Part shown: piece by piece, positions 2,802-15,862 of the stretch
Numbering within the stretch: position 1 is the first letter of the stretch
Layout: the number at the start of each line of letters is the position of its first letter
NCBI GenBank assembly: GCA_021777035.1
Contig: JAIQZR010000138.1
Coordinates: forward strand, 1 to 32,000
Length of the DNA: 32,000 nt
Reading direction: 5' to 3'
Origin: Candidatus Scalindua sp.
GTDB taxonomy: Bacteria > Planctomycetota > Brocadiia > Brocadiales > Scalinduaceae
Program-made: the position numbers and the translations under genes
Notes under the pieces: generated by a model
Databases searched by the model: none
What the model saw: the letters and a program-made list of their open reading frames with translations, nothing else
What the model was told of the DNA's origin: nothing

Positions 2802-2839
2802 CACGATATAAAAGAATACATACGATATTAACAAGTCAT

Positions 2840-2900: not shown

Positions 2901-3036
2901 CGCCCCTCGGATTATTCCCACAGGTATCAACGCAAGATGAATACCTGCTTGATATTGTATTATTAAGCCTTTTCCCTCTTTTTCATGCTTTGCTTAAATC
3001 GATAGCTTTTCGCCATTGAGTGTAAGAATATTATAA

Positions 3037-3349: not shown

Positions 3350-3479
3350 CTTTCTCCGGGCCGTTATGCTTTCTACTTTGGTAAGTCCTTACGGGAATAT
3401 GATGTTGTGTTCACTGCTTCGCATGGGAGGCAAGCCTGGGCATATTACTTTGAAATATACGAAAATTCTGCTCCAATAA
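3108..3479 (+). pseudogene. IS3-family transposase OrfA, truncated and fused to unrelated sequence
   Basis: The first ~80 codons are OrfA-like, up to ...MVDELYRQIGHLKA. The remainder (HFLRAVMLSTLV...) has no OrfA character. Confidence 0.7.
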
Positions 3480-3751
3480 CGGATGCCATACAAACTGCAA
3501 CAAATATTCCCTCTTCAGTATTTGTCACCAAGACATCTAACATATATCACAATTCCAATTGTCCAGAACTAAGCACAGAAGATCTAGTTGAATTTGCTAC
3601 ATCACAAAAAGCGCAAGAGGCCGGTGGTGTACCGTGTAAGACTTGTAATCCGAAGTCTTCATCTGAAGAAAATACGACGGGAGATAAACCTGGCAAATCA
3701 CGCACTACATATGAATGGACAGGATGGAAGTCTTTGTTTGAAAATAAATAA
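3326..3751 (+). pseudogene. 5'-truncated gene ending in an Ada-like (H/C-x3-C...C-x2-C) zinc-ribbon domain
   Basis: The frame is open from 3326 with no credible start; the ORF track gives 3407-3751 from GTG. The C-terminal motif is NIYHNSNCPELSTEDLVEFATSQKAQEAGGVPCKTCNP. The upstream part abuts the IS3 fragment. Confidence 0.55.
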
Positions 3752-3899
3752 AAAATATCACTAATACATTTCGATGATTATGAGGTGTCGCAATGAAATT
3801 GAATAAGTTTATTTAAAATCGTTTACTATAGCCTTTTTATCCTCATTCATTTTATCTGGTGCAAGCGCAGTAGAAAACGCTATAGCTCCTAATGGAAAA

Positions 3900-5165
3900 T
3901 TGGGAGAATTAAGACACGGAACTTTTCCATCCCCCCCTCTTGGTAATTTTACTCATGTTGGTGTGGATATTGTTGCCCCATGTGGAAGCAATATTTACGC
4001 TTTTGCAGATGGCCAGGTTAAGGATATTATAGATAACACCAATGATGAAAATTTTAATACCTTGGGTTATATGGTACTAATAGAACATCCCGCATCACTT
4101 ATTGGTAAAACGTTTTATACACTTTTTCTGCACATGCAAAGCCCACCTGATGTAGCTAAATTAAAGACAAAGTATGGAGAAATTGAAGTAAATATTGACA
4201 CCATTACATCCTTTAACAAAGGTGTCTTAATTTTAAATGACCAAAGCAAGTTGTCAGGAAGTTTTACTGATGGAAATATAACGATCAAAACTTCATACGC
4301 AAAGTTTAGCCTTCCTATATCAGAAATCATTGCTATTTCTACTGAAGCAACTACTACTCCAAGCCAGGAAATAACTGCTCCTACTCAAGGTACAAAATCC
4401 ACAGTAAAGAGATTAAGCCGTGATAAAGCTAAAGAGGTTTTGAAAAACCTTGTGACTACAAAGCGTTGGTGTGCTTTCCCTGGAAAATGTCCAGATAAAA
4501 GTATTAGCATACCAAATGTTTACGGATTTTATTTAGAAGCTTCCAGTGCTGGGATAGAGGTTAGCAGAGAGACATTGATATCCTATTTGTCATGTTTAGA
4601 AAATAAAGGGCTTGTTAAAAACTTGAGTGTGAAAAAAGGAAGAAAAGAAGGTTTTTCTGGCTGGGATGCGTGGTTCGAGACTACAACAACTGGTGAGCCA
4701 TGGCAATTAACGGAGATGGGACAAAAGTATTTAACCGATAACCTGGACTATTCTTTACAGGTTGCTGTTGACAAGATTACAGGCATTCAGTTCAGTAATG
4801 AATACACTGTTACCAAAGTCTTTTTCGACGCTACGATAAAAAGTAGTAATAATCCATTTAACAAGTGTTTTGAAGATTATTTTGATGTTCATAGCTTATT
4901 AAACTACCCTTATGCACTGTTTGAGCTTTTTGATGATGGATGGCGTGTTAAAGAATGGCATAGTGGCGGTAAATTGAAAGAAAGAGTGCAACCGTCTACG
5001 AAGCAATTGGAGAAAACTACTGCTAGTGCCAACACTGACAAATCAGATTTAATTTTAGGCCGTCATGAACATGAAGCTGGAGTGATTGAGTACTTCGTAG
5101 ATGGTACTTTTATGTTACATATGCCTACGGGGGAGTATAAAAAAAGGCAGGCAATTGGAACATAA
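3900..5165 (+). CDS. Degenerate LytM/M23-like domain protein with a large uncharacterised C-terminal region (possibly part of a decayed longer gene, 3792-5522)
   Basis: The N-terminus FTHVGVDIVAPCGSNIYAFADGQV...GYMVLIEHPA...TLFLHMQ matches the M23 HxxxD segment and the following beta-strands. The terminal GPHLHFE-type HxH motif is absent. The start is TTG. A signal-peptide-like stretch lies upstream in frame but is interrupted by stops. Confidence 0.6.
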   Translation: MGELRHGTFPSPPLGNFTHVGVDIVAPCGSNIYAFADGQVKDIIDNTNDENFNTLGYMVLIEHPASLIGKTFYTLFLHMQSPPDVAKLKTKYGEIEVNIDTITSFNKGVLILNDQSKLSGSFTDGNITIKTSYAKFSLPISEIIAISTEATTTPSQEITAPTQGTKSTVKRLSRDKAKEVLKNLVTTKRWCAFPGKCPDKSISIPNVYGFYLEASSAGIEVSRETLISYLSCLENKGLVKNLSVKKGRKEGFSGWDAWFETTTTGEPWQLTEMGQKYLTDNLDYSLQVAVDKITGIQFSNEYTVTKVFFDATIKSSNNPFNKCFEDYFDVHSLLNYPYALFELFDDGWRVKEWHSGGKLKERVQPSTKQLEKTTASANTDKSDLILGRHEHEAGVIEYFVDGTFMLHMPTGEYKKRQAIGT

Positions 5166-5522
5166 ATGGAGATATCCTTACATTGCGTTTTTACATTCAT
5201 CCAAAACCATACAAATATTAAGATATTAGAACTCTCTGCAACCACGTATAAAATTGTGAGAATTAGTAGTGCCGAAAAGGATGCTTACAATAGTACAAAA
5301 AGTATAGAATCCACAGAACAATCTTCAGTATATACTACAGAAAATAGTGATAAGTCAGACAGTCCTAATAAAGCTTCATACTCCGTATTTGCCTCAAGTG
5401 ACTCTAATCTATATCACAAATCTAATTGTTCTAAACTGAACACTAAAGATTTAATAGAATTTAGCTCTCCTAAAAAAGCACGTAAATCTGGAGGTGCACC
5501 TTGTAGCAATTGTAATCCATAA
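5166..5522 (+). CDS. Small protein with C-terminal Ada-like zinc ribbon; same frame as the preceding ORF, separated by one TAA
   Basis: Contains NLYHKSNCSKLNTKDLIEFSSPKKARKSGGAPCSNCNP, paralogous to the motif at about 3545-3655. The ATG at 5166 directly follows the TAA at 5163-5165 in the same reading frame. Confidence 0.5.
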   Translation: MEISLHCVFTFIQNHTNIKILELSATTYKIVRISSAEKDAYNSTKSIESTEQSSVYTTENSDKSDSPNKASYSVFASSDSNLYHKSNCSKLNTKDLIEFSSPKKARKSGGAPCSNCNP

Positions 5523-5527
5523 AGAGA

Positions 5528-5947
5528 TTATTGTAAGGTGCTTTCTTTAAGGACTATATCTTGCTTGGGTGAGACCGCATGCAAAAGTTCATTAAATTTT
5601 TCAACGGAAGGAATAGATTTACCACGTTCGTATCTGGCAAAGGCATTTCGCGAAGAAGCGCCTATTCTTTCAGCTACCTGCGCTAAAGAGAGTCCGCTAA
5701 GTTCTCGTTTTCTTTGAAGAAGAATACTAACCAAGGTCCTTGTATCCTCAGAACCGATCTCGAAATATTCTTGTCGGTTTGAGTAAATTGACACATGAAA
5801 TCCTTCCTTATCAGCCATGGTCTCAATCAAATCCCCCACCATTTCAAAAGCCTCTTTCCTTGAATACCCTTGAGTCATTACATCAAGAATAGGTATTTCC
5901 GCCAACCAGAATTTGCCATTTTTGTAAATCTTTCCACTAAATCTCAT
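5528..5947 (-). CDS. hicB: HicB-family antitoxin with C-terminal XRE-type HTH
   Basis: The N-terminal HicB fold pattern is KNGKFWLAEIPILDVMTQGYSRKEAFEMVGDLIE. The C-terminal HTH is LSGLSLAQVAERIGASSRNAFARYERGKSIPS. It lies 3 nt downstream of hicA. Confidence 0.85.
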   Translation of the reverse strand: MRFSGKIYKNGKFWLAEIPILDVMTQGYSRKEAFEMVGDLIETMADKEGFHVSIYSNRQEYFEIGSEDTRTLVSILLQRKRELSGLSLAQVAERIGASSRNAFARYERGKSIPSVEKFNELLHAVSPKQDIVLKESTLQ

Positions 5948-5950
5948 ATA

Positions 5951-6142
5951 TTAACATCCTTTCTTTATTCTTCTAATAATGGCACGCGCAAGCATTTCAT
6001 TAATTTCAACGTGCCTTGGGACATATTCTTGATGCTCTCCATCAGTCCAGACATCATGTTTACGCCCATGCCTCAAAAACCACCATCCAAGCTTTCTAAG
6101 TGTATTTTCCAAAGCCTTACGTTTCATAGTTTTATTGTACAC
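5951..6142 (-). CDS. hicA: HicA-family mRNA interferase toxin
   Basis: MKRKALENTLRKLGWWFLRHGRKHDVWTDGEH...VPRH is typical of HicA/YcfA. The likely true start is the ATG at 6127 rather than 6142. Confidence 0.85.
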   Translation of the reverse strand: MYNKTMKRKALENTLRKLGWWFLRHGRKHDVWTDGEHQEYVPRHVEINEMLARAIIRRIKKGC

Positions 6143-6416
6143 ATATATGTATACGTGTCAAGCTGTTATAATTTTTGTGTAACGTCAAAAGGAGCTTGAA
6201 ATTATGGTTGACAACAACTAACACAACCATTAGAATTTCCTACTAAAATTATACTTGTATTGGCTGATAGTATGAGAAACTAAACACTTATGCAAAGTAA
6301 TTTCATAAACATTCCCGCCTTATTCACTTTTTCTGAATATACCATCATTTCAGCACTATTGAATACTTGATCTTTTTTGTTTTTCGCCATAAATTTCTTA
6401 GATTAAAAGATTGTAA

Positions 6417-6800
6417 ATGTATACAGGCATAGATATTATTGAGATCAGCAGGATAGAGAAGGTCTTTGGTTCACACAAAGACTTTCTTGGAAGGGTTTAT
6501 ACGTCTGATGAGGTGAAATATTGCCAAGCCAAAAAGAACTGTTATCAGCACTACGCAGTACGTTTTGCTTCAAAAGAGGCCGTACTCAAGGCGTTTGGAA
6601 CCGGTTTAAGAGACAGGATAAAGTGGACTGATATAGAAACGCTGAATGATGAACTTGGAAAGCCTTATGTAAATCTATACGGTAGAGCGAAAGAGATTGC
6701 AACAGAGAAAAATATCGGCGAAATTTCGGTTTCGTTATCACATTGTAAAGAATATGCAATTGCGCACGTATTATTAATACCTGAGAAATCTCATGAATAA
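6417..6800 (+). CDS. acpS: Holo-[acyl-carrier-protein] synthase (4'-phosphopantetheinyl transferase, AcpS type)
   Basis: 127 aa. Motifs: GIDIIEISRIEK..., FASKEAVLKAFGTG, GKPYV, SLSHCKEYAIAHVLL. Confidence 0.9.
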   Translation: MYTGIDIIEISRIEKVFGSHKDFLGRVYTSDEVKYCQAKKNCYQHYAVRFASKEAVLKAFGTGLRDRIKWTDIETLNDELGKPYVNLYGRAKEIATEKNIGEISVSLSHCKEYAIAHVLLIPEKSHE

Positions 6801-6809
6801 GAGAAAAAA

Positions 6810-8285
6810 ATGAAAAAACTAATTCTCATAAACCCTCACCCGATAGGTAATGTTGGCGAGGAAAATGTTTCAGTACTAAATCAGATGCCGGTAAATCTGG
6901 GATATTTGAAAGCGTTAACTCCTGGCAACTGGGAGGTGGACATAATAGATGAAACCCAGGAACTGTCGGTAGATGAAAAAGGTGAAAATGTCTGCTTTGA
7001 CAAGACGAATGTCGCCCTGGTTGGAATAACGTCCGTAAGTTATCAGGCAAACAGGGCATATCAGATTGCTACAGCATGCAAAAAAAGTGGAATACCAGTA
7101 ATAATGGGAGGAGTACACGCAACAAGCTATCCGGAAGAGGCAGCCAAATATGTTGACTCTGTGGTAATAAGAGAAGCGGTTCCTATATGGGAACAGATAA
7201 TTTCTGATTTCGAAAACAATGAGCTCAAGCCAACATATGACGGAGGCTTGACTCCTATGGAAACATACAAGAACCTTCTGCCAGATAGAAAGTTTTTGAC
7301 GGACAAGTATAAATACCGATACTCCGGCATAATTACAACTGCAGGCTGCCCGTTCAGTTGTGAGTTCTGCTCCGTTCCACAGTTCCAGGGAAGAAAATAC
7401 AGAGAGAGGCCTGTAGATGATGTTCTCAATGAGCTTGAGGCAATTAAAGGGCAGTATAGAGGCCTCATCCTGACAGATGAAAATTTCTACGGCCACAGCA
7501 AAAAGTCGTATGAAAGAGTCAGAACCCTTTTTAAAGGAATGGTCGATAGAGGTATTTACCAGAATTGGTTTGGGTTTACCTCATTAAACATCTATCAAGA
7601 TGATGAAACGTTGGACTATATGGCAAAGAGTGGATGTGTGGGTGTGCTCATTGGCATTGAATCTATAAATGAAGATGCATTAAAATCAATGAATAAAGGT
7701 GTTAATCTCCGTATAACAATAGATAAATACAAGGAAGCAATAAAGAATATACGGAAGCATGGCCTTGCTGTCTGGGGAACTATGGTATTCGGAAACGACA
7801 ATGATACACCAGATACATTTAAAGATGTAGTTGATTTTATATTGGATGCTAAGATAGACATAATGACCTGTGGTATATTGTGCCCATTTATCAATACACC
7901 ATTACAACAGAGGCTTGATAGAGACAACAGGCTGTTCAGAACTAACTTTCCTGAAGACTGGATTTATTACACATCACATCACTTAACGTATGTTTTGTCT
8001 AAGCTCTCACTTCAGGAATTTATTGATGGCATAGAGTATGTTTATAACAACATATATTCGACCGAAGTAATCAGGAAAAAGTTCAGAGAAGCAAAAGATG
8101 AACTCAACAATCTCAATGCCGCAATGTTTGCGTTCAGGGTCAATCTAGACTGGCAGGATGTATACAAACATCTGTTAGAAAACCTGAGAGAGCTGCAAGC
8201 TTCGGGAGATTATGAAAAGGCCCTGGAACGTTACGAAACACTGAAAAACCAGAAAAACCTGGACATGGCAAATACTAAGATTTAG
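6810..8285 (+). CDS. B12-binding-domain radical SAM enzyme (class B; BchE/HpnP-like)
   Basis: N-terminal cobalamin-binding-like segment VALVGITSVSYQANRAYQIATACKKSGIPVIMGGVHATSYPEE. CxxxCxxC cluster motif GCPFSCEFC, with Cys codons at 7347-7349, 7359-7361 and 7368-7370. The start is 9 nt after the acpS stop. Confidence 0.88.
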   Translation: MKKLILINPHPIGNVGEENVSVLNQMPVNLGYLKALTPGNWEVDIIDETQELSVDEKGENVCFDKTNVALVGITSVSYQANRAYQIATACKKSGIPVIMGGVHATSYPEEAAKYVDSVVIREAVPIWEQIISDFENNELKPTYDGGLTPMETYKNLLPDRKFLTDKYKYRYSGIITTAGCPFSCEFCSVPQFQGRKYRERPVDDVLNELEAIKGQYRGLILTDENFYGHSKKSYERVRTLFKGMVDRGIYQNWFGFTSLNIYQDDETLDYMAKSGCVGVLIGIESINEDALKSMNKGVNLRITIDKYKEAIKNIRKHGLAVWGTMVFGNDNDTPDTFKDVVDFILDAKIDIMTCGILCPFINTPLQQRLDRDNRLFRTNFPEDWIYYTSHHLTYVLSKLSLQEFIDGIEYVYNNIYSTEVIRKKFREAKDELNNLNAAMFAFRVNLDWQDVYKHLLENLRELQASGDYEKALERYETLKNQKNLDMANTKI

Positions 8286-8325
8286 GTTATTGCTTAGATT
8301 GTTTCTCAAAAAAGAAGTCAAAAAG

Positions 8326-8407
8326 CAAATCCCCCCTCCCCGGACAAACTGTGCCGAGGACTTTACTCCCCTTTAGTCAAAGGAGAATAAGGGGGGATTT
8401 GTTTTTT
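8326..8407 (+). terminator. Terminator-like structure: 11-bp stem closing a 54-nt interior, followed by T6
   Basis: CAAATCCCCCC (8326-8336) pairs with GGGGGGATTTG (8391-8401), followed by TTTTTT (8402-8407). It lies between the radical SAM gene and the KS gene. Confidence 0.5.
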
Positions 8408-8478
8408 GTAAAATATGGCTAAAGTACGTTGGGTACTGGAAACCCCTGTGTTTTTTGATTTTTCACAAAGGATTAAAT

Positions 8479-9687
8479 ATGCCTAGAGTTGTTGTCACCG
8501 GTTTAGGATTAGTAATCGCTAATGGTATTGGTGTTACAAATGCGTGGAATGCCCTCATGAATGGCGAAGATGGCACTGCAGAGTTAAGATCCTTTGACAC
8601 ATCACAATATAAAGTACATCGTGCGTGCGAGGTAAAAGGTTTCGAAGTTGATACTGTCTTTGAAAACGAAACTACGGCAAACACAATACACAAATATACA
8701 TACACTGCTGCAAAAGAGGCGTTGGAAGATAGTGGTCTGAGTGATATTACAGAACGCAACAGAGAAAGATTTGGTATTGCAATCGGGACTCTTGCCGGAG
8801 AACTGCCTCCGTTTGAATACCTGTTACGCAACACACCTGAAGATAAAGCCAACGGCTTTGATATGGGTGTTGCTCTGACATATCCACCATCTTCTATTAC
8901 CACACTGCTCTCTGAAGATTTTGGATTTGAAGGGCCTAACATGGTATCACTAAATGCCTGCTCTTCAGGCAACCACGCTATCGCCTGGGCATTAGACCTT
9001 TTATACGAAGGAAAAGTTGATGTAATGCTGGTAGGCGGTGGTGAACTTATCCCACAAACAGAGTTTACGCATTTTCATAATCTGAAGGCGCTGGCACCTG
9101 AAAAGTGCCAGCCATTTGATAAAGAGAGAAAAGGTCTGATAATAGGAGAAGGTGCAGGAATAATGGTGTTAGAGACACTGGCTTCCGCTTCTAAAAGAGA
9201 TGCTAAAATTTATGCTGAATTAAAAGGCTATGGCATGAGCTGTGACGGACACCATATGACGGCCCCACATCCTGAAGGGGCAGGCGCAGTAGTGGCGATG
9301 TCAAATGCACTTTCCATGGCTAAAATGTCTTACAAAGACGTGGATTACATCAATGCGCATGGAACAGGGACTCCTTTAAATGACAGAATGGAGACCATGG
9401 CCATAAAGTCTGTGTTTAAAGAGCGTGCAAAGAGAATTCCAGTTAGCTCTATTAAATCTATGATAGGCCATACAATGGGTGCGGCCAGTGCAATAGAATC
9501 TGTGGTTAGTTGCCTGGCAATTAAAAACAACGAGGTTCCACCCACCATACACTATGAGGCACCTGATCCTGAGTGTGATCTGGATTATGTGCCAAATAAA
9601 GGACGCAAAACTGAAGTCAACTGTGTTATAAACAACTCATTTGCATTTGGCGGAAATAATGTCACGAATATTTTTAGTAGATTATAG
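8479..9687 (+). CDS. Beta-ketoacyl-ACP synthase II-like condensing enzyme (FabF family, catalytic triad intact)
   Basis: Active-site Cys in NACSSGNHA (TGC at 8959-8961). His in DGHHMTAP and NAHGTGTPLND. Also KSMIGHTMGAASAIE and NSFAFGGNN. The preferred start is MPRVVVTGLG at 8479, with AAAGGA upstream; the track ORF starts at 8455 with TTG. Confidence 0.9.
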   Translation: MPRVVVTGLGLVIANGIGVTNAWNALMNGEDGTAELRSFDTSQYKVHRACEVKGFEVDTVFENETTANTIHKYTYTAAKEALEDSGLSDITERNRERFGIAIGTLAGELPPFEYLLRNTPEDKANGFDMGVALTYPPSSITTLLSEDFGFEGPNMVSLNACSSGNHAIAWALDLLYEGKVDVMLVGGGELIPQTEFTHFHNLKALAPEKCQPFDKERKGLIIGEGAGIMVLETLASASKRDAKIYAELKGYGMSCDGHHMTAPHPEGAGAVVAMSNALSMAKMSYKDVDYINAHGTGTPLNDRMETMAIKSVFKERAKRIPVSSIKSMIGHTMGAASAIESVVSCLAIKNNEVPPTIHYEAPDPECDLDYVPNKGRKTEVNCVINNSFAFGGNNVTNIFSRL

Positions 9688-9735
9688 AGAAAAAGTATAT
9701 AGCCACCAAGGCCCTAAGACACAAAGTAAAAATAA

Positions 9736-10128
9736 ATGCACTTTAAACCACTTTCTACAAGACAGGAAGGAATAGCAAAGAAAATTGTTGACGCAGCATA
9801 TTGTGTGCATAAGGAATTGGGTTCTGGTTTACTTGAAAAAGTGTATGAAGCTTGTTTTTGTCACGAGCTTAAAAAAAGGGATCTTTCCTATAGGAGACAG
9901 GTAGAAATTCCAATTGTGTATGACGGTATAACTTTAGAAGAGGGGCTAAGATTAGATGTATTGGTTGAGGATCTTATCATTTGTGAACTTAAGGCAGTTG
10001 ATAATATGAATCCTGTTTGGGAAGCACAGGTATTAAGCCATTTAAAGCTGGCAGACAAACGTTTAGGCTTCCTTATTAATTTTAATGAAAGATACGTAAA
10101 AGATGGTATCAGGCGTATAATTCTTTAA
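9736..10128 (+). CDS. GxxExxY family protein (PD-(D/E)XK-like), inserted between the two KS genes
   Basis: 130 aa. The defining motif is GSGLLEKVYE (G-x2-E-x2-Y). Further matches: PIVYDG, LDVLVEDLIICELKAV, GFLINFN. Confidence 0.85.
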   Translation: MHFKPLSTRQEGIAKKIVDAAYCVHKELGSGLLEKVYEACFCHELKKRDLSYRRQVEIPIVYDGITLEEGLRLDVLVEDLIICELKAVDNMNPVWEAQVLSHLKLADKRLGFLINFNERYVKDGIRRIIL

Positions 10129-10158
10129 TTTTTTAGTGTCTTAGTGGCAAAAAAATAG

Positions 10159-11388
10159 ATGAATAAAAGGGCCGTAATTACTGGTATTGGAGTTGTGTCT
10201 CCGTTAGGTATCGGGCATCAGGATTTCTGGAATAACCTGGTTTCAGGCAGTTCCTCTATAGCGCCAATAGAGTGCCTTGATCTATCAAAGTATGAATGTA
10301 AAAACGGAGCAGAAGTTAAGGGGCTAAACCCGGAAGAGTTTTTAGGACGTAAAGGTTTAAGGTATCTTAACAAAGGGACTAAATTCCTGGGATCCAGCGC
10401 GAAACTGGCGGTAGATGACGCAAGACTCGAAATAGATGAAGAGCTGTCAAACCATACCGGGATCCTCATCGGCACTTCCCTTGGAAATTTCTCACAGACC
10501 ACAGATTATTTTCACGACATCATCATGGAAGGCCCATCAGAACTATCACCTATGCAGAGCTACGATGTCGCCCTGAACTCTTCCGTAAACTACGTCTCAG
10601 TATTTTTCAAGATGAAGAGTTTCGCCAGGACTATCTCCTCAGGCTTTACATCAGGTACCGATGCGATTGGAAATGCCGTTAAACTTGTACAGAATGGAAA
10701 AGCAAAAGTAATCATAGCCGGTGGAGTCGAGCAGATCTCATTGGATCTTTATATGATTTTTTATCTGAGAAAGATGCTGGCTGGAACTAATGATACCGGA
10801 AACGAGATCAGCATGCCCTTTGACAAAAGAAGAAATGGTTTTATTATGAGTGAAGGCAGTTATGTTTTCGTAGTGGAAGAGTATGACCACGCCTTAAATC
10901 GAGGAGCAAGAATATACGGTGAAATTTCCGGCTATGGCAGCCTCTTTTCTGGCAGCAGGAAAAGCGATACTGAAAACAGAATTAAAAAAGCCGGTAACAC
11001 AATGAAATTATGTATCGATGATGCGGGGATATCCCCAGACGACATAGATTTGATTAACGCAAACGGAAATTCCGGCAAGATGTCAGACCTCATAGAATCA
11101 AAGGCTATCAAAGGGTTGTTTGGAAAGAGAGGCGAAGAGATCCCTGTTCACGCCGTCAAATCAACCTTAGGAGAGAGTTACGGTGCATCCGGGGCAGCAC
11201 AGACAGTATCCGCTTTGCTTTCCATAAACAATGGATTGGTACCCCCTACCATTAATTACGAAGAAAAAGATCCTGAATGCAATCTGAATATTGTTGATGC
11301 AAAGCTCGAAAAGGATATCAATACAGTGCTCATTAATTCGTTTGATTTATCGGGAAACAACTCTTGCCTGGTTGTTAAGAAGGCATAG
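10159..11388 (+). CDS. Ketosynthase homologue lacking the Cys-His-His triad (chain-length-factor / KS-beta-like partner)
   Basis: The thiolase/KS fold is conserved throughout (VITGIGVVSPLG, IIAGGVE, PFDKRRNGFIMSEG, VPPTINYEEKDPEC, INSFDLSGNN). Hand alignment to E. coli FabF gives Cys->Phe (GFTSG; TTT at 10645-10647), His->Arg (GSRKSD) and His->Asn (INANGNSG). Confidence 0.85.
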   Translation: MNKRAVITGIGVVSPLGIGHQDFWNNLVSGSSSIAPIECLDLSKYECKNGAEVKGLNPEEFLGRKGLRYLNKGTKFLGSSAKLAVDDARLEIDEELSNHTGILIGTSLGNFSQTTDYFHDIIMEGPSELSPMQSYDVALNSSVNYVSVFFKMKSFARTISSGFTSGTDAIGNAVKLVQNGKAKVIIAGGVEQISLDLYMIFYLRKMLAGTNDTGNEISMPFDKRRNGFIMSEGSYVFVVEEYDHALNRGARIYGEISGYGSLFSGSRKSDTENRIKKAGNTMKLCIDDAGISPDDIDLINANGNSGKMSDLIESKAIKGLFGKRGEEIPVHAVKSTLGESYGASGAAQTVSALLSINNGLVPPTINYEEKDPECNLNIVDAKLEKDINTVLINSFDLSGNNSCLVVKKA

Positions 11389-11756
11389 AATCTACTAAAT
11401 CAGCTTTTAAACATAATATTGGAATAAATAATCCGGCACATTTCTCCCGACACCATTCTCGGGGTTTGAGATTATGAAGCGGTCAATACAATATTCAAAT
11501 TGCAGAAATATGGCCGTATTCTTATCAGGAGTACTATGTACATTCCAATTCCTACAATTTGTCAATCTTGCACTTGCTTTTGTAATCACTTTTGTTCATA
11601 ATGCTAGATGTAGGCTTAGGTAGGTTTGCGTTTTTAGCACTTGATAGATTGCCTAACTTGGACATGTAAGTAACTTTTCAGTATTTTGAAAAATCACTAA
11701 AAAAAGTGCAGAATGTCGAGTCTGAATAAGAAAAATGTAGGGGCTGTTTCCCAAAC

Positions 11757-11807
11757 AGTCTTTATTTGTACGGCTCGTTTTCTAAACGAGCCGTACAAAT
11801 AAAGACT
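11757..11807. repeat. Perfect 24-bp inverted repeat (hairpin with 3-nt loop) immediately upstream of the reductase gene
   Basis: AGTCTTTATTTGTACGGCTCGTTT (11757-11780) is the exact reverse complement of AAACGAGCCGTACAAATAAAGACT (11784-11807). A second small hairpin, CTGTTT-CCC-AAACAG (11744-11758), overlaps its 5' edge. Confidence 0.8.
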
Positions 11808-11822
11808 CTCTCTAAAAACAAT

Positions 11823-13850
11823 ATGAGTAAATTATTTACACCAATAAAAATTTGTAATTTAGAGATCAAGAACCGACTGGCCATGTCAGCAATGGATCTC
11901 GGCTTTACCTCAAATGGTTCTATAAACAATCGGTTTATAGATTTTTATGTAGAACGTGCTCGCGGAGGTGTAGGGTTAATTGTAGTGGGCGGATGCTATC
12001 CGGAAATGACCGGCAAGGTTTGGAAGAGCATAATTGGCCTGGACAAAGATGAATTTATTCCGGGTTTAAAGAAGCTAACCGATACGATACACAAATATGA
12101 TGTTAAGATTGCAGCACAAATACTTCACGGAGGGAGAAGCGCATCTTCATTTTTTTCAAAAACCCACCCAGTATCACCATCAAGCCTTTCACATATCAAC
12201 ATAAAGCAGAAACCACACGCCCTGACCATACCTGAAATAAAGAAAGTAATAGATGGCTATGTTACTGCCACAATAAGGGTAAAGAAGGGAGGGTTTGATG
12301 CAGTAGAGATACACGGCGGCATGGGCTATCTTATCAACCAGTTTCTTTCAAGAGCAACTAACAAGAGAAAAGATAGATATGGTGGCAGTCTCAAGAACAG
12401 GATAAGATTTGCGAAAGAGATAGTTGTAGCCATAAAGAAAAAAGTGGGGAAAAAATATCCTGTAATCTTCCGCTTATCGGGTGAAGATTTTGTAGATGAT
12501 GGGCTCAAAATAGATGAAAGTATTGAGATTGCGAAAGAACTGGAGAAAGCAGGTGTGGATGCATTCAATGTTTCACCCGGCTGGCATGAGAGCCGAACTC
12601 CCATAATGCTTATGGCTATTCCAAGAATGTCATATATCTTTCTGTCTGAAAAGATTAAAGACAATGTAAATGTACCTGTTATCGGATCCGTGAGAATAAA
12701 TGACTTGGCCCTGGCAGAGGAAGTTATTGATAATGACCGTTCAGACATTGTTTCAATAGGAAGGCCCTTAATAGCAGACCCGGAATTACCAAAAAAATAT
12801 AAGAAAAAGCAGTTTGATGATATCAGAAGATGCATTGCCTGTAACCAAGGTTGTTTTGATTCCTTGTTAGGTTTCAAATCTGTCAGCTGTTTATATAATG
12901 TCAGAGCTGGCAAAGAGAGTGAATTCAAGATCAGGAAGGCGAAGAAAAAGAAAAAAGTAATGGTTATTGGCGGCGGACCGGGAGGTATGGAGGCAGCAAG
13001 AATTGCCGCTTTAAGAGGTCATGACGTACATTTATTTGAGAAAGCAGATGTGCTTGGTGGTCAATTAAGATATGCTTATATACCGCCGGGAAGGGAAGAG
13101 ATAGAAAATGTTATCATATTTCTGGAAAATCAGATAAGGAAATTAAATGTAAATATACAGCTTTGCAAAAAAGTAGATACAAAAACGATAAAGGATTTAA
13201 AGCCGGACGTTGTAATCGCAGCGACAGGGGGGAAGCCTCTTATTCCTGAGATTTCTGGTGTTAAAGAGAAGAATGTTGTTGTAGCTGAAGACGTATTTGA
13301 CAATAAAGTAAAGGTTGGTCAAGACGTCGTAATTATAGGCGGAGGCACTATCGGTTGCGAAATCGCCCTTCACACGGCAAAGATGGGGGCAATGGAACCG
13401 GAAGTTGCCTGCTTTCTTTTAAAAAACAGAGTTATTAGTGGAGATGAAGCCATAGGACTTACTTCAAAGGGAAAACGAAATATCACTATTCTGGAAATGA
13501 AAAATAAAATTGGTGGAAAGTTTGGCATCTCAACCAGATGGGTTATCATGAAGCAGGTGCAGGATGCCGGCATTAACAGTATTACCGGAATAAAAGTAAA
13601 AAATATATCGACTAAAGCTAAATCAAAAAAAGAGAAGGATAAAGTCTGCGTAACTTTTGAAAAGGAAAATAAAAATACGAAGATTTATGCGGATACGGTT
13701 ATCATCGCCGCAGGATACAAATCCAACCAGGATCTTACCAGAAAATTAAACGGTACGATTAACGAACTATATAAAATAGGAGATTGCGTAGAGGTCAGGA
13801 CGGCACTCGAAGCGATCCATGAAGGGTTTGAAGTAGGATTGAAGATTTAA
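11823..13850 (+). CDS. FadH-like 2,4-dienoyl-CoA reductase / Old-Yellow-Enzyme-family flavoprotein with Fe-S and FAD/NAD(P) domains
   Basis: N-terminal OYE TIM-barrel (LKNRLAMSAMD, HGGMGYLINQFLS, RYGGSL). 4Fe-4S motif RRCIACNQGCFD. Two Rossmann motifs, VMVIGGGPGGMEAA and VVIIGGGTIGCEIA. The preferred start is MSKLFTPI at 11823; the track ORF begins at a TTG at 11766 inside the hairpin. Confidence 0.85.
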   Translation: MSKLFTPIKICNLEIKNRLAMSAMDLGFTSNGSINNRFIDFYVERARGGVGLIVVGGCYPEMTGKVWKSIIGLDKDEFIPGLKKLTDTIHKYDVKIAAQILHGGRSASSFFSKTHPVSPSSLSHINIKQKPHALTIPEIKKVIDGYVTATIRVKKGGFDAVEIHGGMGYLINQFLSRATNKRKDRYGGSLKNRIRFAKEIVVAIKKKVGKKYPVIFRLSGEDFVDDGLKIDESIEIAKELEKAGVDAFNVSPGWHESRTPIMLMAIPRMSYIFLSEKIKDNVNVPVIGSVRINDLALAEEVIDNDRSDIVSIGRPLIADPELPKKYKKKQFDDIRRCIACNQGCFDSLLGFKSVSCLYNVRAGKESEFKIRKAKKKKKVMVIGGGPGGMEAARIAALRGHDVHLFEKADVLGGQLRYAYIPPGREEIENVIIFLENQIRKLNVNIQLCKKVDTKTIKDLKPDVVIAATGGKPLIPEISGVKEKNVVVAEDVFDNKVKVGQDVVIIGGGTIGCEIALHTAKMGAMEPEVACFLLKNRVISGDEAIGLTSKGKRNITILEMKNKIGGKFGISTRWVIMKQVQDAGINSITGIKVKNISTKAKSKKEKDKVCVTFEKENKNTKIYADTVIIAAGYKSNQDLTRKLNGTINELYKIGDCVEVRTALEAIHEGFEVGLKI

Positions 13851-13854
13851 TATT

Positions 13855-14673
13855 ATGAAAGATATTCGAATGAATCGTGGCGACAACTCCGGTTATGACC
13901 ATCTGGAATTTGAAGAGATAGCGTCTGATAATGGTAAGAAAATAGGAATTATTTACTTGAACAAACCTGACAGGAACTCTTTGGGTTCCTGGTTACTGGA
14001 CGCTATATATGAGAAAATGGATCAGTACGAAAATGATGAAAAGGTTGGAGCCATTATTATTGCCAGTAAGTTAAGAGGGGTATTTTGTGACGGTGTAGAC
14101 CGCGAAGAGTTATTTGGGTCATGGATTTCAGATCTGGTAGCAAAGAAAGACTACGAACGGTTCCATCGTTCCTACGAGATGCTTGTTGAAATGGAAAATT
14201 GCCAGAAACCGGTTATTGCCGCAATTAATGGCATTGCAATAGGAGCAGGGATAGAACTTGCAATGTTATGTGATCTGCGTATTGCATCAGAACTCGCATT
14301 TTTCAATCTGCCTGAAGCAAAGCCGGAACTTGGCATTATTCCGGCGCTGGGCACAACACAACGTTTACCGCGGCTAATTGGCCATGCACGTGCAAAAGAG
14401 ATGCTGTTTCTTGGCAAGATGGTTCGTGCAAAAACCGCATTGGAATGGGGTTTAGTCAACCAAATTGTTCCACACAAAGAGGTCTTGAATCAAGCCATAG
14501 AAATGGCAAAAGTGCTGCTGGAGAGAGAGACTGGAGTACTAATAGAAATGAAAAAATGTGTCAATTTTGCAGTTGAAAATGATATTACAAAAGGTCTGGA
14601 ATACGAGGTCAGTGTATTCGCTAAAATGATGCGACTGAAACTGGCGGAAAAGGAGATTACCGTCGAATCGTAA
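13855..14673 (+). CDS. Enoyl-CoA hydratase/isomerase (crotonase) family protein
   Basis: Crotonase signature AAINGIAIGAGIELAMLCDLRIAS, plus PEAKPELGIIPALGTTQRLPRLIG. The start is 4 nt after the upstream stop. Confidence 0.88.
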   Translation: MKDIRMNRGDNSGYDHLEFEEIASDNGKKIGIIYLNKPDRNSLGSWLLDAIYEKMDQYENDEKVGAIIIASKLRGVFCDGVDREELFGSWISDLVAKKDYERFHRSYEMLVEMENCQKPVIAAINGIAIGAGIELAMLCDLRIASELAFFNLPEAKPELGIIPALGTTQRLPRLIGHARAKEMLFLGKMVRAKTALEWGLVNQIVPHKEVLNQAIEMAKVLLERETGVLIEMKKCVNFAVENDITKGLEYEVSVFAKMMRLKLAEKEITVES

Positions 14674-14750: not shown

Positions 14751-15494
14751 ATGAGTATGAGTAACAAGACGGCGATAGTAACAGGTGGTACAAGAGGTAT
14801 AGGAAAAGCGATAGTACTTGAACTGGCAAAAAACGGATGCAATGTTGCCTTTAACTATAGTAAGAGTGATGACCTGGCAAATGAACTCGTAAAGGAGATA
14901 GAAGCACTTGGAGTCAAGGCCATGGCAAAGAAGGCGGATGTATCCGATTTTGAAAGTGCTAAAGATATGATTAAAGAGGTTAAGGATGAGTTTGGTCAGA
15001 TCGATTATCTGGTTAACAATGCTGGAATAACGAGAGACAAACTGCTTGCCCTGATGAAAGAAAATGACTGGGATGACGTGATTAATATAAACCTGAAAAG
15101 TGTGTATAATTTTTCTAAGGCGGTAATCATGACCATGATCAAGCAGAAAAGAGGAAACATACTCAACATAACCTCTGTCAGCGGAATTGCGGGCGTTGCA
15201 GGCCAGACCAACTACTCAGCTTCCAAAGCGGGAATGATTGGCTTCACAAAGGCCCTTGCAAAGGAAGTTGGTAAGGCAAAAATTAATGTTAACGCCATTG
15301 CGTGCGGATTTATAGAAACAGACATGACTTCAGAGCTTCCTGAAGAGTACAAGCAGAAGATGATAGATATGACTGCACTAAAGCGATTCGGCACAACTGA
15401 CGACGTAGCAAAAACAGCCAGATTTTTACTATCAGACGACGCAAAATATATTACCGGACAGGTATTGTCTATCGATGGAGGATTGGCGTTATAA
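14751..15494 (+). CDS. fabG: 3-oxoacyl-ACP reductase (SDR family, FabG-like)
   Basis: VTGGTRGIGKA (TGxxxGxG), NNAGITRD, catalytic YSASKAG (YxxxK), GQVLSIDGG. GGAGG Shine-Dalgarno upstream. Confidence 0.9.
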   Translation: MSMSNKTAIVTGGTRGIGKAIVLELAKNGCNVAFNYSKSDDLANELVKEIEALGVKAMAKKADVSDFESAKDMIKEVKDEFGQIDYLVNNAGITRDKLLALMKENDWDDVININLKSVYNFSKAVIMTMIKQKRGNILNITSVSGIAGVAGQTNYSASKAGMIGFTKALAKEVGKAKINVNAIACGFIETDMTSELPEEYKQKMIDMTALKRFGTTDDVAKTARFLLSDDAKYITGQVLSIDGGLAL

Positions 15495-15550: not shown

Positions 15551-15862
15551 ATGCTCTTCTTATTAAAAGTTCAAATAAAAAAGATACCTGATATGCCTGT
15601 GAAGGATTTCCTGGGATTTGTAGTCAAGGAGTGGGAATATTTTATCAGGATGAGAAAAAGAGGCAGGATCCTTGCAGGCGGGAAACTGGCCGGTAGCAGA
15701 GGTGCTGCCGCCATTATTGAAGTTGATTCCAATGAAGACCTTGATCAACTCGTATCAAATCTACCACTCTTTCCATTTTTCACTGACATAGAAATAACCC
15801 CACTCGTCCCTACAGACAAAGCGTTGCTCGATGTTAAACGCATCCATTCACTTATGAAGTAA
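15551..15862 (+). CDS. Muconolactone delta-isomerase-like small protein
   Basis: 103 aa. The N-terminus MLFLLKV..., the central GGKLAGSRGAAAIIEVDSNEDLDQLVSNLPLFPF and the length fit the MIase (ferredoxin-like) family. AAAGGAG Shine-Dalgarno upstream. This is a recalled pattern match and is less certain than its neighbours. Confidence 0.6.
   Translation: MLFLLKVQIKKIPDMPVKDFLGFVVKEWEYFIRMRKRGRILAGGKLAGSRGAAAIIEVDSNEDLDQLVSNLPLFPFFTDIEITPLVPTDKALLDVKRIHSLMK

What the first reader, a model, noticed from the sequence alone, without database searches (positions are those of the whole stretch)
6810..8285. Class-B (cobalamin-domain) radical SAM enzyme translationally adjacent to acpS at the head of the lipid cluster
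The ORF has an N-terminal B12-binding-like domain and a GCPFSCEFC radical SAM motif, and it starts 9 nt after acpS. Known relatives include methylases of unactivated carbons (hopanoid HpnP/HpnR-like) and the BchE ring-forming cyclase. Genetic coupling to a phosphopantetheinyl transferase and KS genes argues that its substrate is a carrier-bound acyl chain. This makes it the prime candidate for an unusual methylation or cyclisation step.
Basis: partly seen in the sequence, partly recalled or inferred. Interest (0 to 1): 0.68.

Follow-up and report, generated by a model that had tools for sequence, protein, structure and literature searches.

The report
Known ladderane-candidate radical SAM gene (Kuste2803 ortholog)

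Summary
The ORF at 6810-8285 is real. It encodes a 491-aa protein with an N-terminal B12-binding-type Rossmann domain, a radical SAM core (C180-x3-C184-x2-C187) and a helical C-terminal domain. It starts 9 nt after acpS.

It is about 80% identical to Kuenenia stuttgartiensis Kuste2803 (CAJ73554.1). It sits in the same module: acpS, rSAM, active ketosynthase, ketosynthase with a dead triad (Phe/Asn/Glu, as in Kuste2805). That linkage holds in every Brocadiales locus I examined. No curated radical SAM family reaches its cut-off.

Kuste2803 was named as a possible ladderane cyclisation enzyme in 2009, cloned in 2016 and cited again in a 2022 review. Its reaction is still unknown.

What this analysis adds:
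- The protein is a paralog (56%) of the "Cluster I" rSAM Kuste3608.
- In Scalindua and some other lineages the module continues into a FadH-like dienoyl reductase, a crotonase, FabG and a muconolactone-isomerase-like protein.
- On two contigs of 55% and 65% G+C, Cluster I-type and window-type genes are fused into one operon-like array. A MAG labelled Blastocatellia carries a smaller version. This argues that the two clusters serve one pathway, and perhaps that the pathway is not confined to anammox bacteria.

Verdict: already known candidate, function unproven.

The parts
6417..6800 (+). acpS, holo-ACP synthase (127 aa), ortholog of Kuste2802
   Evidence: PF01648 65.7 bits and TIGR00516 100 bits against a cut-off of 59.8. 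It is 59% identical to the Kuenenia acpS in L091. It lies directly upstream of the rSAM gene in L005, L006, L008, L009 and L091.
6810..8285 (+). B12-domain radical SAM protein (491 aa), ortholog of Kuste2803. This is the finding itself.
   Evidence: 80% identical over 401 aa to the Kuste2803 sequence printed in Javidpour 2016, supplement file 7. The P0017 cluster contains CAJ73554.1. Only 56% identical to the Cluster I paralog Kuste3608 (P0078).
6810..7229 (+). N-terminal Rossmann-like (B12-binding-type) domain, residues 1 to about 140
   Evidence: Pfam B12-binding at residues 27-123. The model has beta strands at 2-8, 41-47, 68-74, 97-100 and 117-120. Gly100-Gly101 and Glu122 are invariant in 56/56 family members; these are the GG and GE positions described in PMC9204698.
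7347..7370 (+). CxxxCxxC motif for the [4Fe-4S] cluster (Cys180, Cys184, Cys187)
   Evidence: Read directly from the sequence. Invariant in 56/56 aligned homologs.
8319..8408 (.). Inverted repeat (19-nt arms, 95% complementary, 52 nt apart) in the 169-nt spacer between the rSAM gene and KS1
   Evidence: It is single copy in the window. Its function was not tested. The corresponding spacer is only 12 nt in Kuenenia (L091).
8455..9687 (+). KS1, an active FabF-type ketosynthase and ortholog of Kuste2804. The likely true start is ATG 8479.
   Evidence: PF00109 and PF02801. Catalytic Cys169, His302, Lys334 and His339 are present. It is 62% identical to Kuste2804 and 47% to the Cluster I enzyme KustE3605. 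The L005 ortholog is 402 aa, which matches a start at ATG 8479.
9689..10154 (+). Strain-specific 466-bp insertion carrying a PD-(D/E)XK_3 ORF (9736-10128). It is not part of the lipid module.
   Evidence: Absent from the 88%-identical locus L005, where KS1 and KS2 abut. PF13366, 134.5 bits.
10159..11388 (+). KS2mut, a ketosynthase homolog with a dead triad (Cys to Phe, His to Asn, His to Glu). It is the ortholog of Kuste2805 and a predicted chain-length-factor-like partner of KS1.
   Evidence: One search shows the triad columns as F/N/.../K/E in every window-type locus, including Kuste2805. This matches Rattray 2009 Table 2 (Phe163, Asn298, Asn300, Glu333). It is 56% identical to Kuste2805 and 38% to KustE3606. 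The heterodimer is inferred by analogy with Granatino 2026.
11382..11815 (.). Strain-specific 434-bp insertion ending in a perfect 24+24-nt palindrome (11757-11807)
   Evidence: Absent from L005, where KS2 and the reductase gene overlap. The palindrome is reported.
11823..13850 (+). FadH-type (OYE-family Fe-S flavoprotein) 2,4-dienoyl-thioester reductase homolog, 675 aa
   Evidence: PF00724 and PF07992. The best PDB sequence matches are 2-naphthoyl-CoA reductase 6qkg (2e-111) and E. coli 2,4-dienoyl-CoA reductase 1ps9 (1.6e-110, full length). The gene is conserved after KS2 in L005, L006, L007 and L009 but is absent there in Kuenenia.
13855..14673 (+). Enoyl-CoA hydratase/isomerase (crotonase) family protein
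   Evidence: PF00378, 173.8 bits. Conserved in L005, L006 and L007; homologs are also in L088 and L095.
14751..15494 (+). FabG-type 3-oxoacyl-ACP reductase
   Evidence: TIGR01830 324 bits against a cut-off of 297.75. Conserved in L005, L007 and L088.
15551..15862 (+). Muconolactone-isomerase-like small protein (103 aa). It is the last gene of the conserved block.
   Evidence: PF02426 51.7 bits, with a weak match to 1mli. Conserved in L005, L007 and L088. Nucleotide synteny with L005 ends at 15865.

Best explanation
The ORF is the Candidatus Scalindua ortholog of Kuenenia stuttgartiensis Kuste2803. It is a three-domain radical SAM enzyme with a B12-binding-type domain. It belongs to a conserved four-gene module: acpS, rSAM, active ketosynthase, and catalytically dead chain-length-factor-like ketosynthase. 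This module is a paralog of the KS/CLF + rSAM part of anammox 'Cluster I' (KustE3603-3608).

Most likely mechanism (inferred, not shown):
1. The KS1/KS2mut heterodimer builds a short or partly unsaturated acyl chain on a carrier protein.
2. In Scalindua that chain is trimmed by the adjacent FabG, crotonase and FadH-like dienoyl reductase.
3. The rSAM cleaves SAM reductively to a 5'-deoxyadenosyl radical and abstracts a hydrogen from an unactivated carbon of the tethered chain.
4. With its cobalamin-type cofactor holding or quenching the intermediate, it forms a new C-C bond. This is either ring closure, as genetics shows for the B12-domain GDGT ring synthases GrsA/GrsB, or the joining or tailoring of two pieces. 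The step would lie on the route to ladderane lipids, together with the Cluster I enzymes.

Shown here: identity, domain architecture, orthology, conserved gene linkage, and fusion of the two cluster types on two contigs of 55% and 65% G+C whose taxon the tools did not give.
Inferred: cobalamin use, a carrier-bound substrate, the type of chemistry, and the link to ladderanes.
For: Orthology. The protein is 80% identical to Kuste2803, against 56% to Kuste3608. The P0017 cluster contains CAJ73554.1.

Gene order. acpS-rSAM-KS-KSmut is found in L005, L006, L008, L009 and L091/L092, and rSAM-KS-KSmut in L007. The Phe/Asn/Glu dead-triad signature is shared with Kuste2805.

Family boundaries. The family is compact. 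At 50% clustering it collapses to one representative; the next relative is 44% identical and the rest are 40% or less. No curated family reaches its cut-off.

Fold and motifs. The model has pLDDT 91.6 and matches B12-domain rSAM structures. The GG motif and Glu122 are invariant (against the motifs in PMC9204698).

Coupling to Cluster I.
- L007 has the two clusters divergently adjacent.
- L095 has ACP-FabZ-KS-KS-PDH-rSAM-rSAM-rSAM-KS-KS-ECH in one direction.
- L088 has a similar fusion that also includes MIase, ECH, FabG, ACP, FabH and acpS.

Expression. Kuste2802-2805 have FPKM values of 24-35 in Kuenenia (Javidpour 2016, supplement file 8).

Precedents. The amxFabF2/amxFabFmut pair forms a KS/CLF-like heterodimer (Granatino 2026). 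GrsA and GrsB are B12-domain rSAM ring synthases acting in lipid chains (PMC13459092).
Against: - No biochemical or genetic datum exists for this protein or any ortholog. Heterologous expression of 34 candidate genes, including kuste2802-2805, gave no new fatty acids (Javidpour 2016).
- The literature consensus places ladderane chemistry on Cluster I, not on this module.
- The Pfam B12-binding score is marginal (32.9 against 32.1).
- The top structural hit is AprD4, which from my memory does not use cobalamin.
- Most characterised class B enzymes are methylases.
- There is no ACP gene in the window.
- Close homologs (52-60%) with the same ketosynthase pair occur on contigs of 50-65% G+C, one of them from a MAG labelled Blastocatellia. 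The product may therefore not be ladderane-specific.
Confidence: 0.5

Rival explanations
1. The enzyme is a conventional cobalamin-dependent radical SAM C-methyltransferase. It adds methyl groups to an unactivated carbon of the acyl chain, either to make methyl-branched fatty acids or to supply extra carbons that are later rearranged.
For: Most characterised class B enzymes are methylases (PMC13459092; PMC9204698). The best partial NCBIfam and PDB matches include the methylases PhpK, MgmA, TsrM, CysS and TokK. From my memory, anammox bacteria contain mid-chain methyl-branched fatty acids. A hypothesis of cyclopropanation followed by rearrangement exists in the literature (Dietl 2023).
Against: All these matches fall far below family cut-offs and are no better than those to the non-methylases BchE, HpnJ and AprD4. 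Separate SAM methyltransferase candidates exist in anammox genomes (Kuste3338 and Kuste3347). According to Dietl 2023, isotope labelling did not reproduce the pattern expected from the cyclopropane route.
Confidence: 0.22
2. The N-terminal domain is only B12-like and binds no cobalamin. The enzyme would then be an AprD4-type radical dehydratase, isomerase or other redox-neutral rearrangement enzyme acting on a hydroxy- or enoyl-acyl intermediate.
For: AprD4 (6fd2) is the best match both by sequence (7e-12) and by fold (TM 0.67). The Pfam B12-binding score is borderline. The module lacks a hot-dog dehydratase gene.
Against: The Gly-Gly motif and the Glu of the GE motif are invariant in 56/56 family members. 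These residues contact cobalamin in OxsB, TsrM and TokK. The crotonase next door could provide the dehydration step.
Confidence: 0.1
3. The module has nothing specifically to do with ladderanes. It would be a highly reducing type II PKS/FAS-like system for another lipid or polyene, shared with non-anammox bacteria.
For: Homologous KS-KSmut-rSAM arrays occur in a MAG labelled Blastocatellia (L093, 50% G+C) and on contigs of 55% and 65% G+C (L095, L088). Ladderane-type clusters are called by antiSMASH in many non-Planctomycetota, with no lipid evidence behind them (PMC9902471). The NCBIfam matches of the ketosynthases include the cispentacin KS/CLF-like AmcF.
Against: The orthologs at 68% identity or more that carry a source name are all labelled Brocadiales, Brocadiaceae or Planctomycetes, including five named candidate genera. 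The non-Brocadiales copies always travel with Cluster I-type genes, so whatever they make is probably the same class of product. The taxonomic labels and lipid contents of those MAGs are unverified.
Confidence: 0.15
4. It is a bacteriochlorophyll C-8(2) or C-12(1) methyltransferase (BchQ/BchR type), as the GenBank product names for Kuste2803 and Kuste3608 state.
For: Source annotations read 'putative bacteriochlorophyllide d C-8(2)-methyltransferase' and '...C-12(1)-methyltransferase'.
Against: No pigment family model reaches its cut-off; BchE scores 87 against 481. The gene context is fatty-acid or polyketide-like in every locus. From my knowledge, anammox bacteria are not phototrophs.
Confidence: 0.01

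Closest known systems
Kuste2803 (CAJ73554.1, UniRef100_Q1Q0N1) of Candidatus Kuenenia stuttgartiensis, in the kuste2802-2805 cluster
   Same: It is 80% identical over 401 aa. It has the same three domains and the same CPF(S/A)CEFC motif. Gene order is the same: acpS, rSAM, FabF, non-canonical FabF/B with a Phe/Asn/Glu triad. It has been proposed as a cyclisation or oxidative-cascade catalyst for ladderanes (PMC2649909, PMC9204698).
   Different: In Kuenenia the cluster stops after the second ketosynthase. In the window it continues with a FadH-like reductase, a crotonase, FabG and an MIase-like gene. The window copy also carries two strain-specific insertions. Neither protein has been characterised.
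Kuste3608, the B12-dependent radical SAM of anammox 'Cluster I' (amxACP-amxFabZ-amxFabF2-amxFabFmut-PDH-rSAM)
   Same: It is a paralog in the same compact family, 56% identical. It also sits beside a KS/dead-KS pair. The two cluster types are adjacent or fused in L007, L088 and L095.
   Different: It belongs to a different superclade in the NJ tree and has a different cluster motif (TKGCPNxCDFC against TAGCPFxCEFC). It follows a phytoene-desaturase-like gene rather than acpS. It is the paralog on which current structural work and the literature consensus focus.
GrsA/GrsB GDGT ring synthases (Sulfolobus acidocaldarius)
   Same: They are radical SAM proteins with an N-terminal B12-type Rossmann domain that form carbocycles inside saturated lipid chains. 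This was shown by gene deletion (PMC13459092). They are the best functional analogy for a ring-forming lipid rSAM.
   Different: They are archaeal, act on isoprenoid tetraether lipids, form five-membered rings, and are not linked to ketosynthases. I did not measure sequence similarity to the window protein.
BchE and HpnJ (non-methylating class B radical SAM enzymes)
   Same: They share the B12-domain plus rSAM architecture. Partial model matches score 87 bits each. A published sequence similarity network places the 'ladderane enzyme' in the same main cluster (PMC9204698).
   Different: The scores are far below the family cut-offs (481 and 578). Their substrates are a porphyrin and a hopanoid sugar, and their gene contexts are unrelated.
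AprD4 (PDB 6fd2), radical SAM 1,2-diol dehydratase
   Same: It is the closest solved structure by sequence (7e-12) and by fold (TM 0.67-0.73).
   Different: It is only 17-18% identical and acts on an aminoglycoside. From my memory it is cobalamin-independent. The NCBIfam AprD4 model scores 57 against a cut-off of 500.
amxFabF2/amxFabFmut heterodimer (Granatino et al. 2026 preprint), and type II PKS KS/CLF pairs
   Same: The neighbouring KS1/KS2mut pair shows the same pattern of one intact and one dead triad. KS1 is 47-48% and KS2mut 38% identical to the Cluster I pair.
   Different: It is a different paralog pair: position 163 is Phe here and Val in Kuste3606. Heterodimer formation and chain-length preference have not been tested for this pair.

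Membership tests
Class B (cobalamin-dependent) radical SAM enzymes | CxxxCxxC motif that binds the [4Fe-4S] cluster, within a radical SAM (partial TIM barrel) core | tested here: met
   Cys180, Cys184 and Cys187 are present. PF04055 scores 80.4 bits against a cut-off of 29.5. The cysteines are invariant in 56/56 homologs. The barrel is seen in the model.
Class B (cobalamin-dependent) radical SAM enzymes | N-terminal Rossmann-type cobalamin-binding domain | tested here: met
   PF02310 scores 32.9 bits against a cut-off of 32.1, which is marginal. The AF2 model has five parallel strands at residues 2-120. Foldseek matches cover the N-domains of MgmA, TsrM, TokK, CysS and OxsB.
Class B (cobalamin-dependent) radical SAM enzymes | Gly-Gly motif on beta-4 and Gly-Glu motif at the start of alpha-5, which contact base-off cobalamin (PMC9204698) | tested here: inconclusive
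   G100-G101 are invariant in 56/56 sequences and Glu122 in 56/56. The residue before the Glu is Arg in the window protein (30/56) and Gly in the Kuste3608 clade (21/56). The motifs are consistent with cobalamin binding but do not prove it.
Class B (cobalamin-dependent) radical SAM enzymes | Experimentally demonstrated cobalamin binding or dependence | not testable with these tools
   This needs purified protein. The closest solved structure is AprD4, which from my memory is a cobalamin-free member with the same fold.
Kuste2803 orthologous group (acpS-linked anammox B12-rSAM) | Closer to Kuste2803 than to any paralog | tested here: met
   80% identity to Kuste2803 against 56% to Kuste3608. It groups with P0017 (Kuste2803) in clade A of the NJ tree. 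It shares the TAGCPFxCEFCSVPQFQ motif.
Kuste2803 orthologous group (acpS-linked anammox B12-rSAM) | Gene order acpS, rSAM, active KS, KS with a Phe/Asn/Glu dead triad | tested here: met
   The Kuenenia locus L091 is. Rattray's Table 2 for Kuste2805 is.
Cluster I B12-rSAM (Kuste3608 group) | Position after a phytoene-desaturase-like gene in ACP-FabZ-KS-KS-PDH-rSAM, with the TKGCPNxCDFC motif | tested here: not met
   The window has no ACP, FabZ or PDH gene. The motif is TAGCPFSCEFC. The protein falls in the other superclade.
TIGR04072 rSAM_ladder_B12 (lipid biosynthesis B12-binding/radical SAM protein) | Model score at or above the curated cut-off of 360 bits | tested here: not met
   76.2 bits. 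Kuste3608 and the Brocadia ortholog also fail, at 87 and 89 bits. This model describes a different family.
BchE anaerobic Mg-protoporphyrin IX monomethyl ester cyclase (TIGR02026) | Model score at or above 481 bits | tested here: not met
   87.4 bits, covering the core only.
Hopanoid enzymes HpnR (TIGR04367) and HpnJ (TIGR03471) | Model scores at or above 650 and 577.6 bits | tested here: not met
   58.0 and 87.2 bits. There are no hopanoid genes in the neighbourhood.
PhpK-family P-methyltransferases (TIGR04479) | Model score at or above 600 bits | tested here: not met
   104.3 bits, residues 174-353 only.

The most novel reading that the evidence does not exclude
The Kuste2803-type module and Cluster I are two halves of one ancient pathway, which also exists as a single fused operon outside the anammox order.

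Evidence so far:
- L095 (55% G+C) carries ACP-FabZ-KS-KSmut-PDH-rSAM-rSAM-rSAM-KS-KSmut-ECH.
- L088 (65% G+C) carries a similar array that also includes MIase, ECH, FabG, ACP, FabH and acpS.
- A MAG labelled Blastocatellia (L093) carries KS-KSmut-rSAM plus a Cluster I-type rSAM.

If those organisms are truly non-anammox, there are two possibilities. Either ladderane-like cyclised lipids are made outside Brocadiales, or the 'ladderane' genes make something else. In both cases the claim that Cluster I occurs exclusively in ladderane producers would fall. The compact fused operons would also become better targets for heterologous reconstitution than the scattered anammox genes.
Probability: 0.3. 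Interest if true: 0.75.

Novelty: already known. Interest (0 to 1): 0.35.

Why it matters
How ladderane lipids are made is a question that has stood open for more than 20 years. No enzyme for cyclobutane formation is known, and anammox bacteria cannot be manipulated genetically. This gene family is one of two B12-type radical SAM candidates for that chemistry.

The finding as given rediscovers a published candidate, so it does not change what can be tested.

- The acpS-linked enzyme and the Cluster I enzyme are ancient paralogs, each paired with its own KS/dead-KS couple.
- Some lineages attach a dienoyl reductase, a crotonase, a ketoreductase and an isomerase-like gene to this module.
- Rare contigs fuse both cluster types into one array. 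This supports a single pathway that uses both radical SAM enzymes, and it offers compact gene sets for reconstitution.

Tried and rejected
1. I first took the best-named Kuenenia hit (P0078, 56%) for the ortholog. Its locus (L001) turned out to be Cluster I, so it is Kuste3608. The true ortholog, Kuste2803, had no source name in the hit list (P0017). I identified it from the protein sequence printed in Javidpour 2016, supplement file 7.

2. TIGR04072 'rSAM_ladder_B12' looked like the obvious family. It scores only 76 bits against a cut-off of 360, and both anammox paralogs fail it.

It cannot be used as a census. No phylogenetic profile across all Brocadiales was possible.

4. The homolog search with KS2mut was swamped by more than 120 Scalindua variants and never reached Kuenenia.

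5. I looked for an ACP gene in the window by tblastn with amxACP and the L088 ACPs. There is none.

6. The promoter and terminator scans gave counts not distinguishable from shuffled sequence: 38 against 28.7 +/- 6.2, and 8 against 7.0 +/- 2.6. I make no operon-boundary claim from them.

7. The taxonomy of the clade B contigs could not be established. Cluster look-ups gave only one name, 'Blastocatellia bacterium'. G+C content is only indirect evidence.

8. One clade B copy (L094), one clade C' copy (L089) and one clade D copy (L090) stand alone without ketosynthases. Linkage is therefore a property of the Kuste2803 and Kuste3608 clades and some clade B members, not of the whole family.
Full report
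**Observation**

The window holds an ATG-initiated ORF at 6810-8285 (+) of 491 codons.
- Pfam finds a Radical_SAM domain at residues 174-344 (80.4 bits). It finds a B12-binding domain at residues 27-123 (32.9 bits, just above the 32.1 cut-off).
- The motif G-C180-P-F-S-C184-E-F-C187 is present at nt 7344-7370.
- The preceding ORF, 6417-6800, is a holo-ACP synthase (TIGR00516 100 bits against 59.8). It ends in TAA at 6798-6800, so the rSAM ATG follows after exactly 9 nt.
- An AlphaFold2 model built on 56 homologs is confident (pLDDT 91.6, pTM 0.89). It shows a Rossmann-like N-domain, a partial TIM barrel and a long helical C-terminal domain.
- The best Foldseek matches in the PDB are AprD4, MgmA, TsrM, CysS, TokK and OxsB.

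**Origin of the window**

- The best homolog is from Candidatus Scalindua rubra (94%).
- Every named protein among the best 120 hits is labelled Brocadiales, Brocadiaceae or Planctomycetes. Named genera include Kuenenia, Brocadia, Wujingus, Tripitaka and Hypogeohydataceae.
- The window has 38.8% G+C.
- A locus from assembly GCA_019911885.1 (L005) is 85-90% identical at the DNA level from 5646 to 15865.

The window is therefore a marine anammox (Scalindua) genome.

**Neighbourhood**

Downstream of the rSAM gene, all on the + strand:

| Coordinates | Gene | Key evidence |
|---|---|---|
| 8455-9687 | KS1, FabF-type ketosynthase | Intact Cys169/His302/Lys334/His339; likely real start ATG 8479 |
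| 10159-11388 | KS2mut, second ketosynthase homolog | Triad is Phe/Asn/Glu |
| 11823-13850 | FadH-type Fe-S flavoprotein reductase | Full-length match to E. coli 2,4-dienoyl-CoA reductase 1ps9 (1.6e-110) and to 2-naphthoyl-CoA reductase 6qkg |
| 13855-14673 | Crotonase-family protein | PF00378 |
| 14751-15494 | FabG | Above the curated cut-off |
| 15551-15862 | Muconolactone-isomerase-like protein, 103 aa | PF02426; weak match to 1mli |

There is no ACP gene in the window. Synteny with L005 stops at 15865, which sets the end of the block.

**Identity**

- Rattray et al. [quoted passage not shown] They list Kuste2805 as a non-canonical ketosynthase with Phe163, Asn298, Asn300, Cys302 and Glu333.
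- Javidpour et al. 2016 (PMC4790861) describe kuste2802-2805 as 'a complete cluster' of ACP synthase, SAM radical enzyme, FabF and non-canonical FabB.
- Their supplement prints the Kuste2803 protein. It is 80% identical to the window protein over 401 residues.
- It is 99% identical to hit P0017, whose 90% cluster contains CAJ73554.1.
- The Kuenenia locus (L091/L092) reads acpS-rSAM-KS-KS and is followed by unrelated genes.
- The window KS2mut has the same Phe/Asn/Asn/.../Glu signature as Kuste2805 and is 56% identical to it. KS1 is 62% identical to Kuste2804.

The finding is therefore the Scalindua ortholog of Kuste2803.

**Relation to Cluster I**

- The best-named Kuenenia and Brocadia hits (P0078, P0102; 54-56%) sit in ACP-FabZ-KS-KS-PDH-rSAM (L001, L003). 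That is 'Cluster I', KustE3603-3608, of Dietl 2023 and Granatino 2026.
- P0078 matches the printed Kuste3608 sequence.
- An NJ tree of 39 sequences splits the family into two superclades. One contains clade A (Kuste2803 type), clade A' and clade B. The other contains clade C (Kuste3608 type), clade C' and clade D.
- Each clade has a characteristic motif around the cluster cysteines.

- The order acpS-rSAM-KS1-KS2mut is present in L005, L006, L008 and L009 and in Kuenenia L091/L092.
- L007 has rSAM-KS1-KS2mut with Cluster I divergently upstream in place of acpS.
- The acpS-to-rSAM spacing is always short: 8-24 nt.
- The extension FadH-like/ECH(/FabG/MIase) is present in the window, L005, L006 (reductase and ECH), L007 (all four) and L009 (reductase). 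It is absent in Kuenenia and in L008.

**Family boundaries**

- No curated model is reached: PhpK 104/600, BchE 87/481, HpnJ 87/578, TIGR04072 'rSAM_ladder_B12' 76/360, HpnR 58/650.
- In an exhaustive search of 1.84 billion 50% representatives, the whole A-D family collapses to one representative (54%). The next relative is 44% identical, and everything else is 40% or less.
- The partial scan of species genomes gives 37% or less outside the family.

The enzyme does not cluster with any characterised family.

**Cobalamin**

The review PMC9204698 defines a Gly-Gly motif on beta-4 and a Gly-Glu motif at alpha-5 as the cobalamin contacts in OxsB, TsrM and TokK.
- In 56 family members G100-G101 and Glu122 are invariant.
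- The residue before Glu122 is Arg in the window clade and Gly in the Kuste3608 clade.

This fits cobalamin binding but does not prove it. The closest solved structure is AprD4, which from my memory lacks cobalamin.

**Mechanism**

Granatino et al. 2026 showed that the Cluster I pair amxFabF2/amxFabFmut is a KS/chain-length-factor-like heterodimer that prefers short chains. They note that no ladderane synthesis has ever been reconstituted.

By analogy, I infer the following sequence:
1. KS1/KS2mut is a second such heterodimer.
2. The FabG, crotonase and FadH-like reductase process beta-keto and dienoyl intermediates.
3. The rSAM abstracts a hydrogen from the tethered chain and forms a C-C bond.

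GrsA/GrsB provide genetic precedent for B12-domain rSAM ring formation in lipid chains. Methylation, the commonest class B chemistry, is the main rival. A cobalamin-free rearrangement is a minor rival. Nothing here discriminates between them.

**Additional result: fused clusters**

Clade B (52-60% identical to the window protein) comprises only 11 clusters in 5.8 billion proteins. Three of its members lie beside both cluster types.

| Locus | G+C | Gene array (identity to Cluster I or window genes) |
|---|---|---|
| L095 | 55% | ACP(51%)-FabZ(52%)-FabF2(65%)-FabFmut(56%)-PDH(50%)-rSAM(C type, 61%)-rSAM-rSAM(B type, 56%)-KS1(57%)-KS2mut(50%)-ECH(40%) |
| L088 | 64.6% | ACP-FabZ-KS-short KS-rSAM-rSAM-rSAM-KS-KS-MIase-ECH-FabG-ACP-FabH-acpS-KS |
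| L093 | 50% | KS1(52%)-KS2mut(41%, Phe...Glu)-rSAM(59%)-DUF374-rSAM(C type, 64%); from a MAG labelled Blastocatellia |

Together with the divergent pair in L007, these arrays argue that the two clusters work in one pathway.
- They also question the statement that Cluster I is found exclusively in ladderane producers.
- However, the taxonomy of these contigs could not be verified. Ladderane-like antiSMASH calls outside Planctomycetota are already known.
- Other family members stand alone without ketosynthases (L089, L090, L094).

**Novelty and score**

- The gene, its domain composition, its cluster and its candidate role were published in 2009 and taken up again in 2016 and 2022.
- It is expressed in Kuenenia (FPKM about 32).
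- The finding is therefore an independent rediscovery of a known, uncharacterised candidate.
- I rate it 'already known' with interest 0.35.
- The most novel reading that is not excluded is a single pathway that also occurs as a fused operon outside Brocadiales. I give it probability 0.3, and interest 0.75 if true.

Noticed in passing
window 9689-10154: A 466-bp insertion carries a PD-(D/E)XK_3 (PF13366) ORF at 9736-10128. It sits between KS1 and KS2mut, two genes that abut in the 88%-identical Scalindua locus L005. It is flanked by a 12-nt inverted repeat (9714-9725 and 10133-10144). It looks like a small mobile or selfish gene dropped into the operon.
   Followed up: partly
window 11382-11815: A 434-bp apparently non-coding insertion lies between KS2mut and the FadH-like gene, which overlap in L005. 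It ends in a perfect 24+24-nt palindrome with a 3-nt loop (11757-11807), 15 nt before the likely true start of the reductase gene (ATG 11823). The TTG start listed by the ORF listing at 11766 lies inside the hairpin.
   Followed up: partly
window 8319-8408: An inverted repeat with 19-nt arms (95% complementary, 52 nt apart, with C6/G6 runs) lies in the 169-nt spacer between the rSAM gene and KS1. It is single copy in the window. The equivalent spacer is 12 nt in Kuenenia.
   Followed up: partly
L095:2119-14797 and L088:3954-18974: Contigs of 55% and 64.6% G+C, whose taxon the tools did not give, fuse a Cluster I-like gene set to a window-type rSAM-KS-KSmut-ECH(-MIase-FabG) set in one direction, with three B12-rSAM genes in tandem. 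L095 includes the phytoene-desaturase-like gene; L088 lacks it.
   Followed up: partly
L093:7466-13800: A MAG labelled 'Blastocatellia bacterium' (GCA_035652355.1; HZS47098.1 and HZS47100.1) carries KS, a KS with the Phe...Glu dead triad, an rSAM 59% identical to the window protein, DUF374, and a Cluster I-type rSAM (64%). It has no ACP, FabZ or PDH nearby.
   Followed up: partly
L007:3035-21464: In one 5.1-Mb contig (34% G+C) Cluster I and the window-type cluster are divergently adjacent, with a 283-bp gap between the ACP and rSAM genes. There is no acpS. A third B12-rSAM, 78% identical to Kuste3608, lies about 2 kb downstream.
   Followed up: partly
L019:6949-14934 and L020:10001-17221: Uncultured Geobacter MAGs have two or three tandem B12-rSAM genes (26-34% identical) followed by FabG, a KS, a truncated or second KS and (in L020) a FabZ-like gene. 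This is a more distant rSAM + KS-pair lipid cluster of the kind Rattray noted in Deltaproteobacteria.
   Followed up: no
hits P0078 and P0253: Public records name Kuste3608 and Kuste2803 'putative bacteriochlorophyllide d C-12(1)/C-8(2)-methyltransferase', and JGI names the family 'YgiQ (UPF0313)'. Both labels are unsupported by the model scores (BchE 87/481, YgiQ 21/462) and by the gene context.
   Followed up: yes
window 16087-17040 (-): An HMGL-like (DRE-TIM metallo-lyase) gene lies convergent to the end of the lipid block. It is not syntenic with L005, which has different genes after the MIase-like gene. It is probably unrelated to the cluster.
   Followed up: no
window 443-5522: The region upstream of the cluster looks like a mobile or defence patch. 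It has a 774-aa ORF with a P-loop (GPPGTGKT) that ends abruptly, followed by short ORFs at 3036-3751. One of these has an N-terminus that looks like a transposase helper protein by eye. Two further ORFs share a C-terminal 'SNCP/SKL...CxxCNP' motif (3407-3751 and 5166-5522). None of this was analysed with tools beyond.
   Followed up: no
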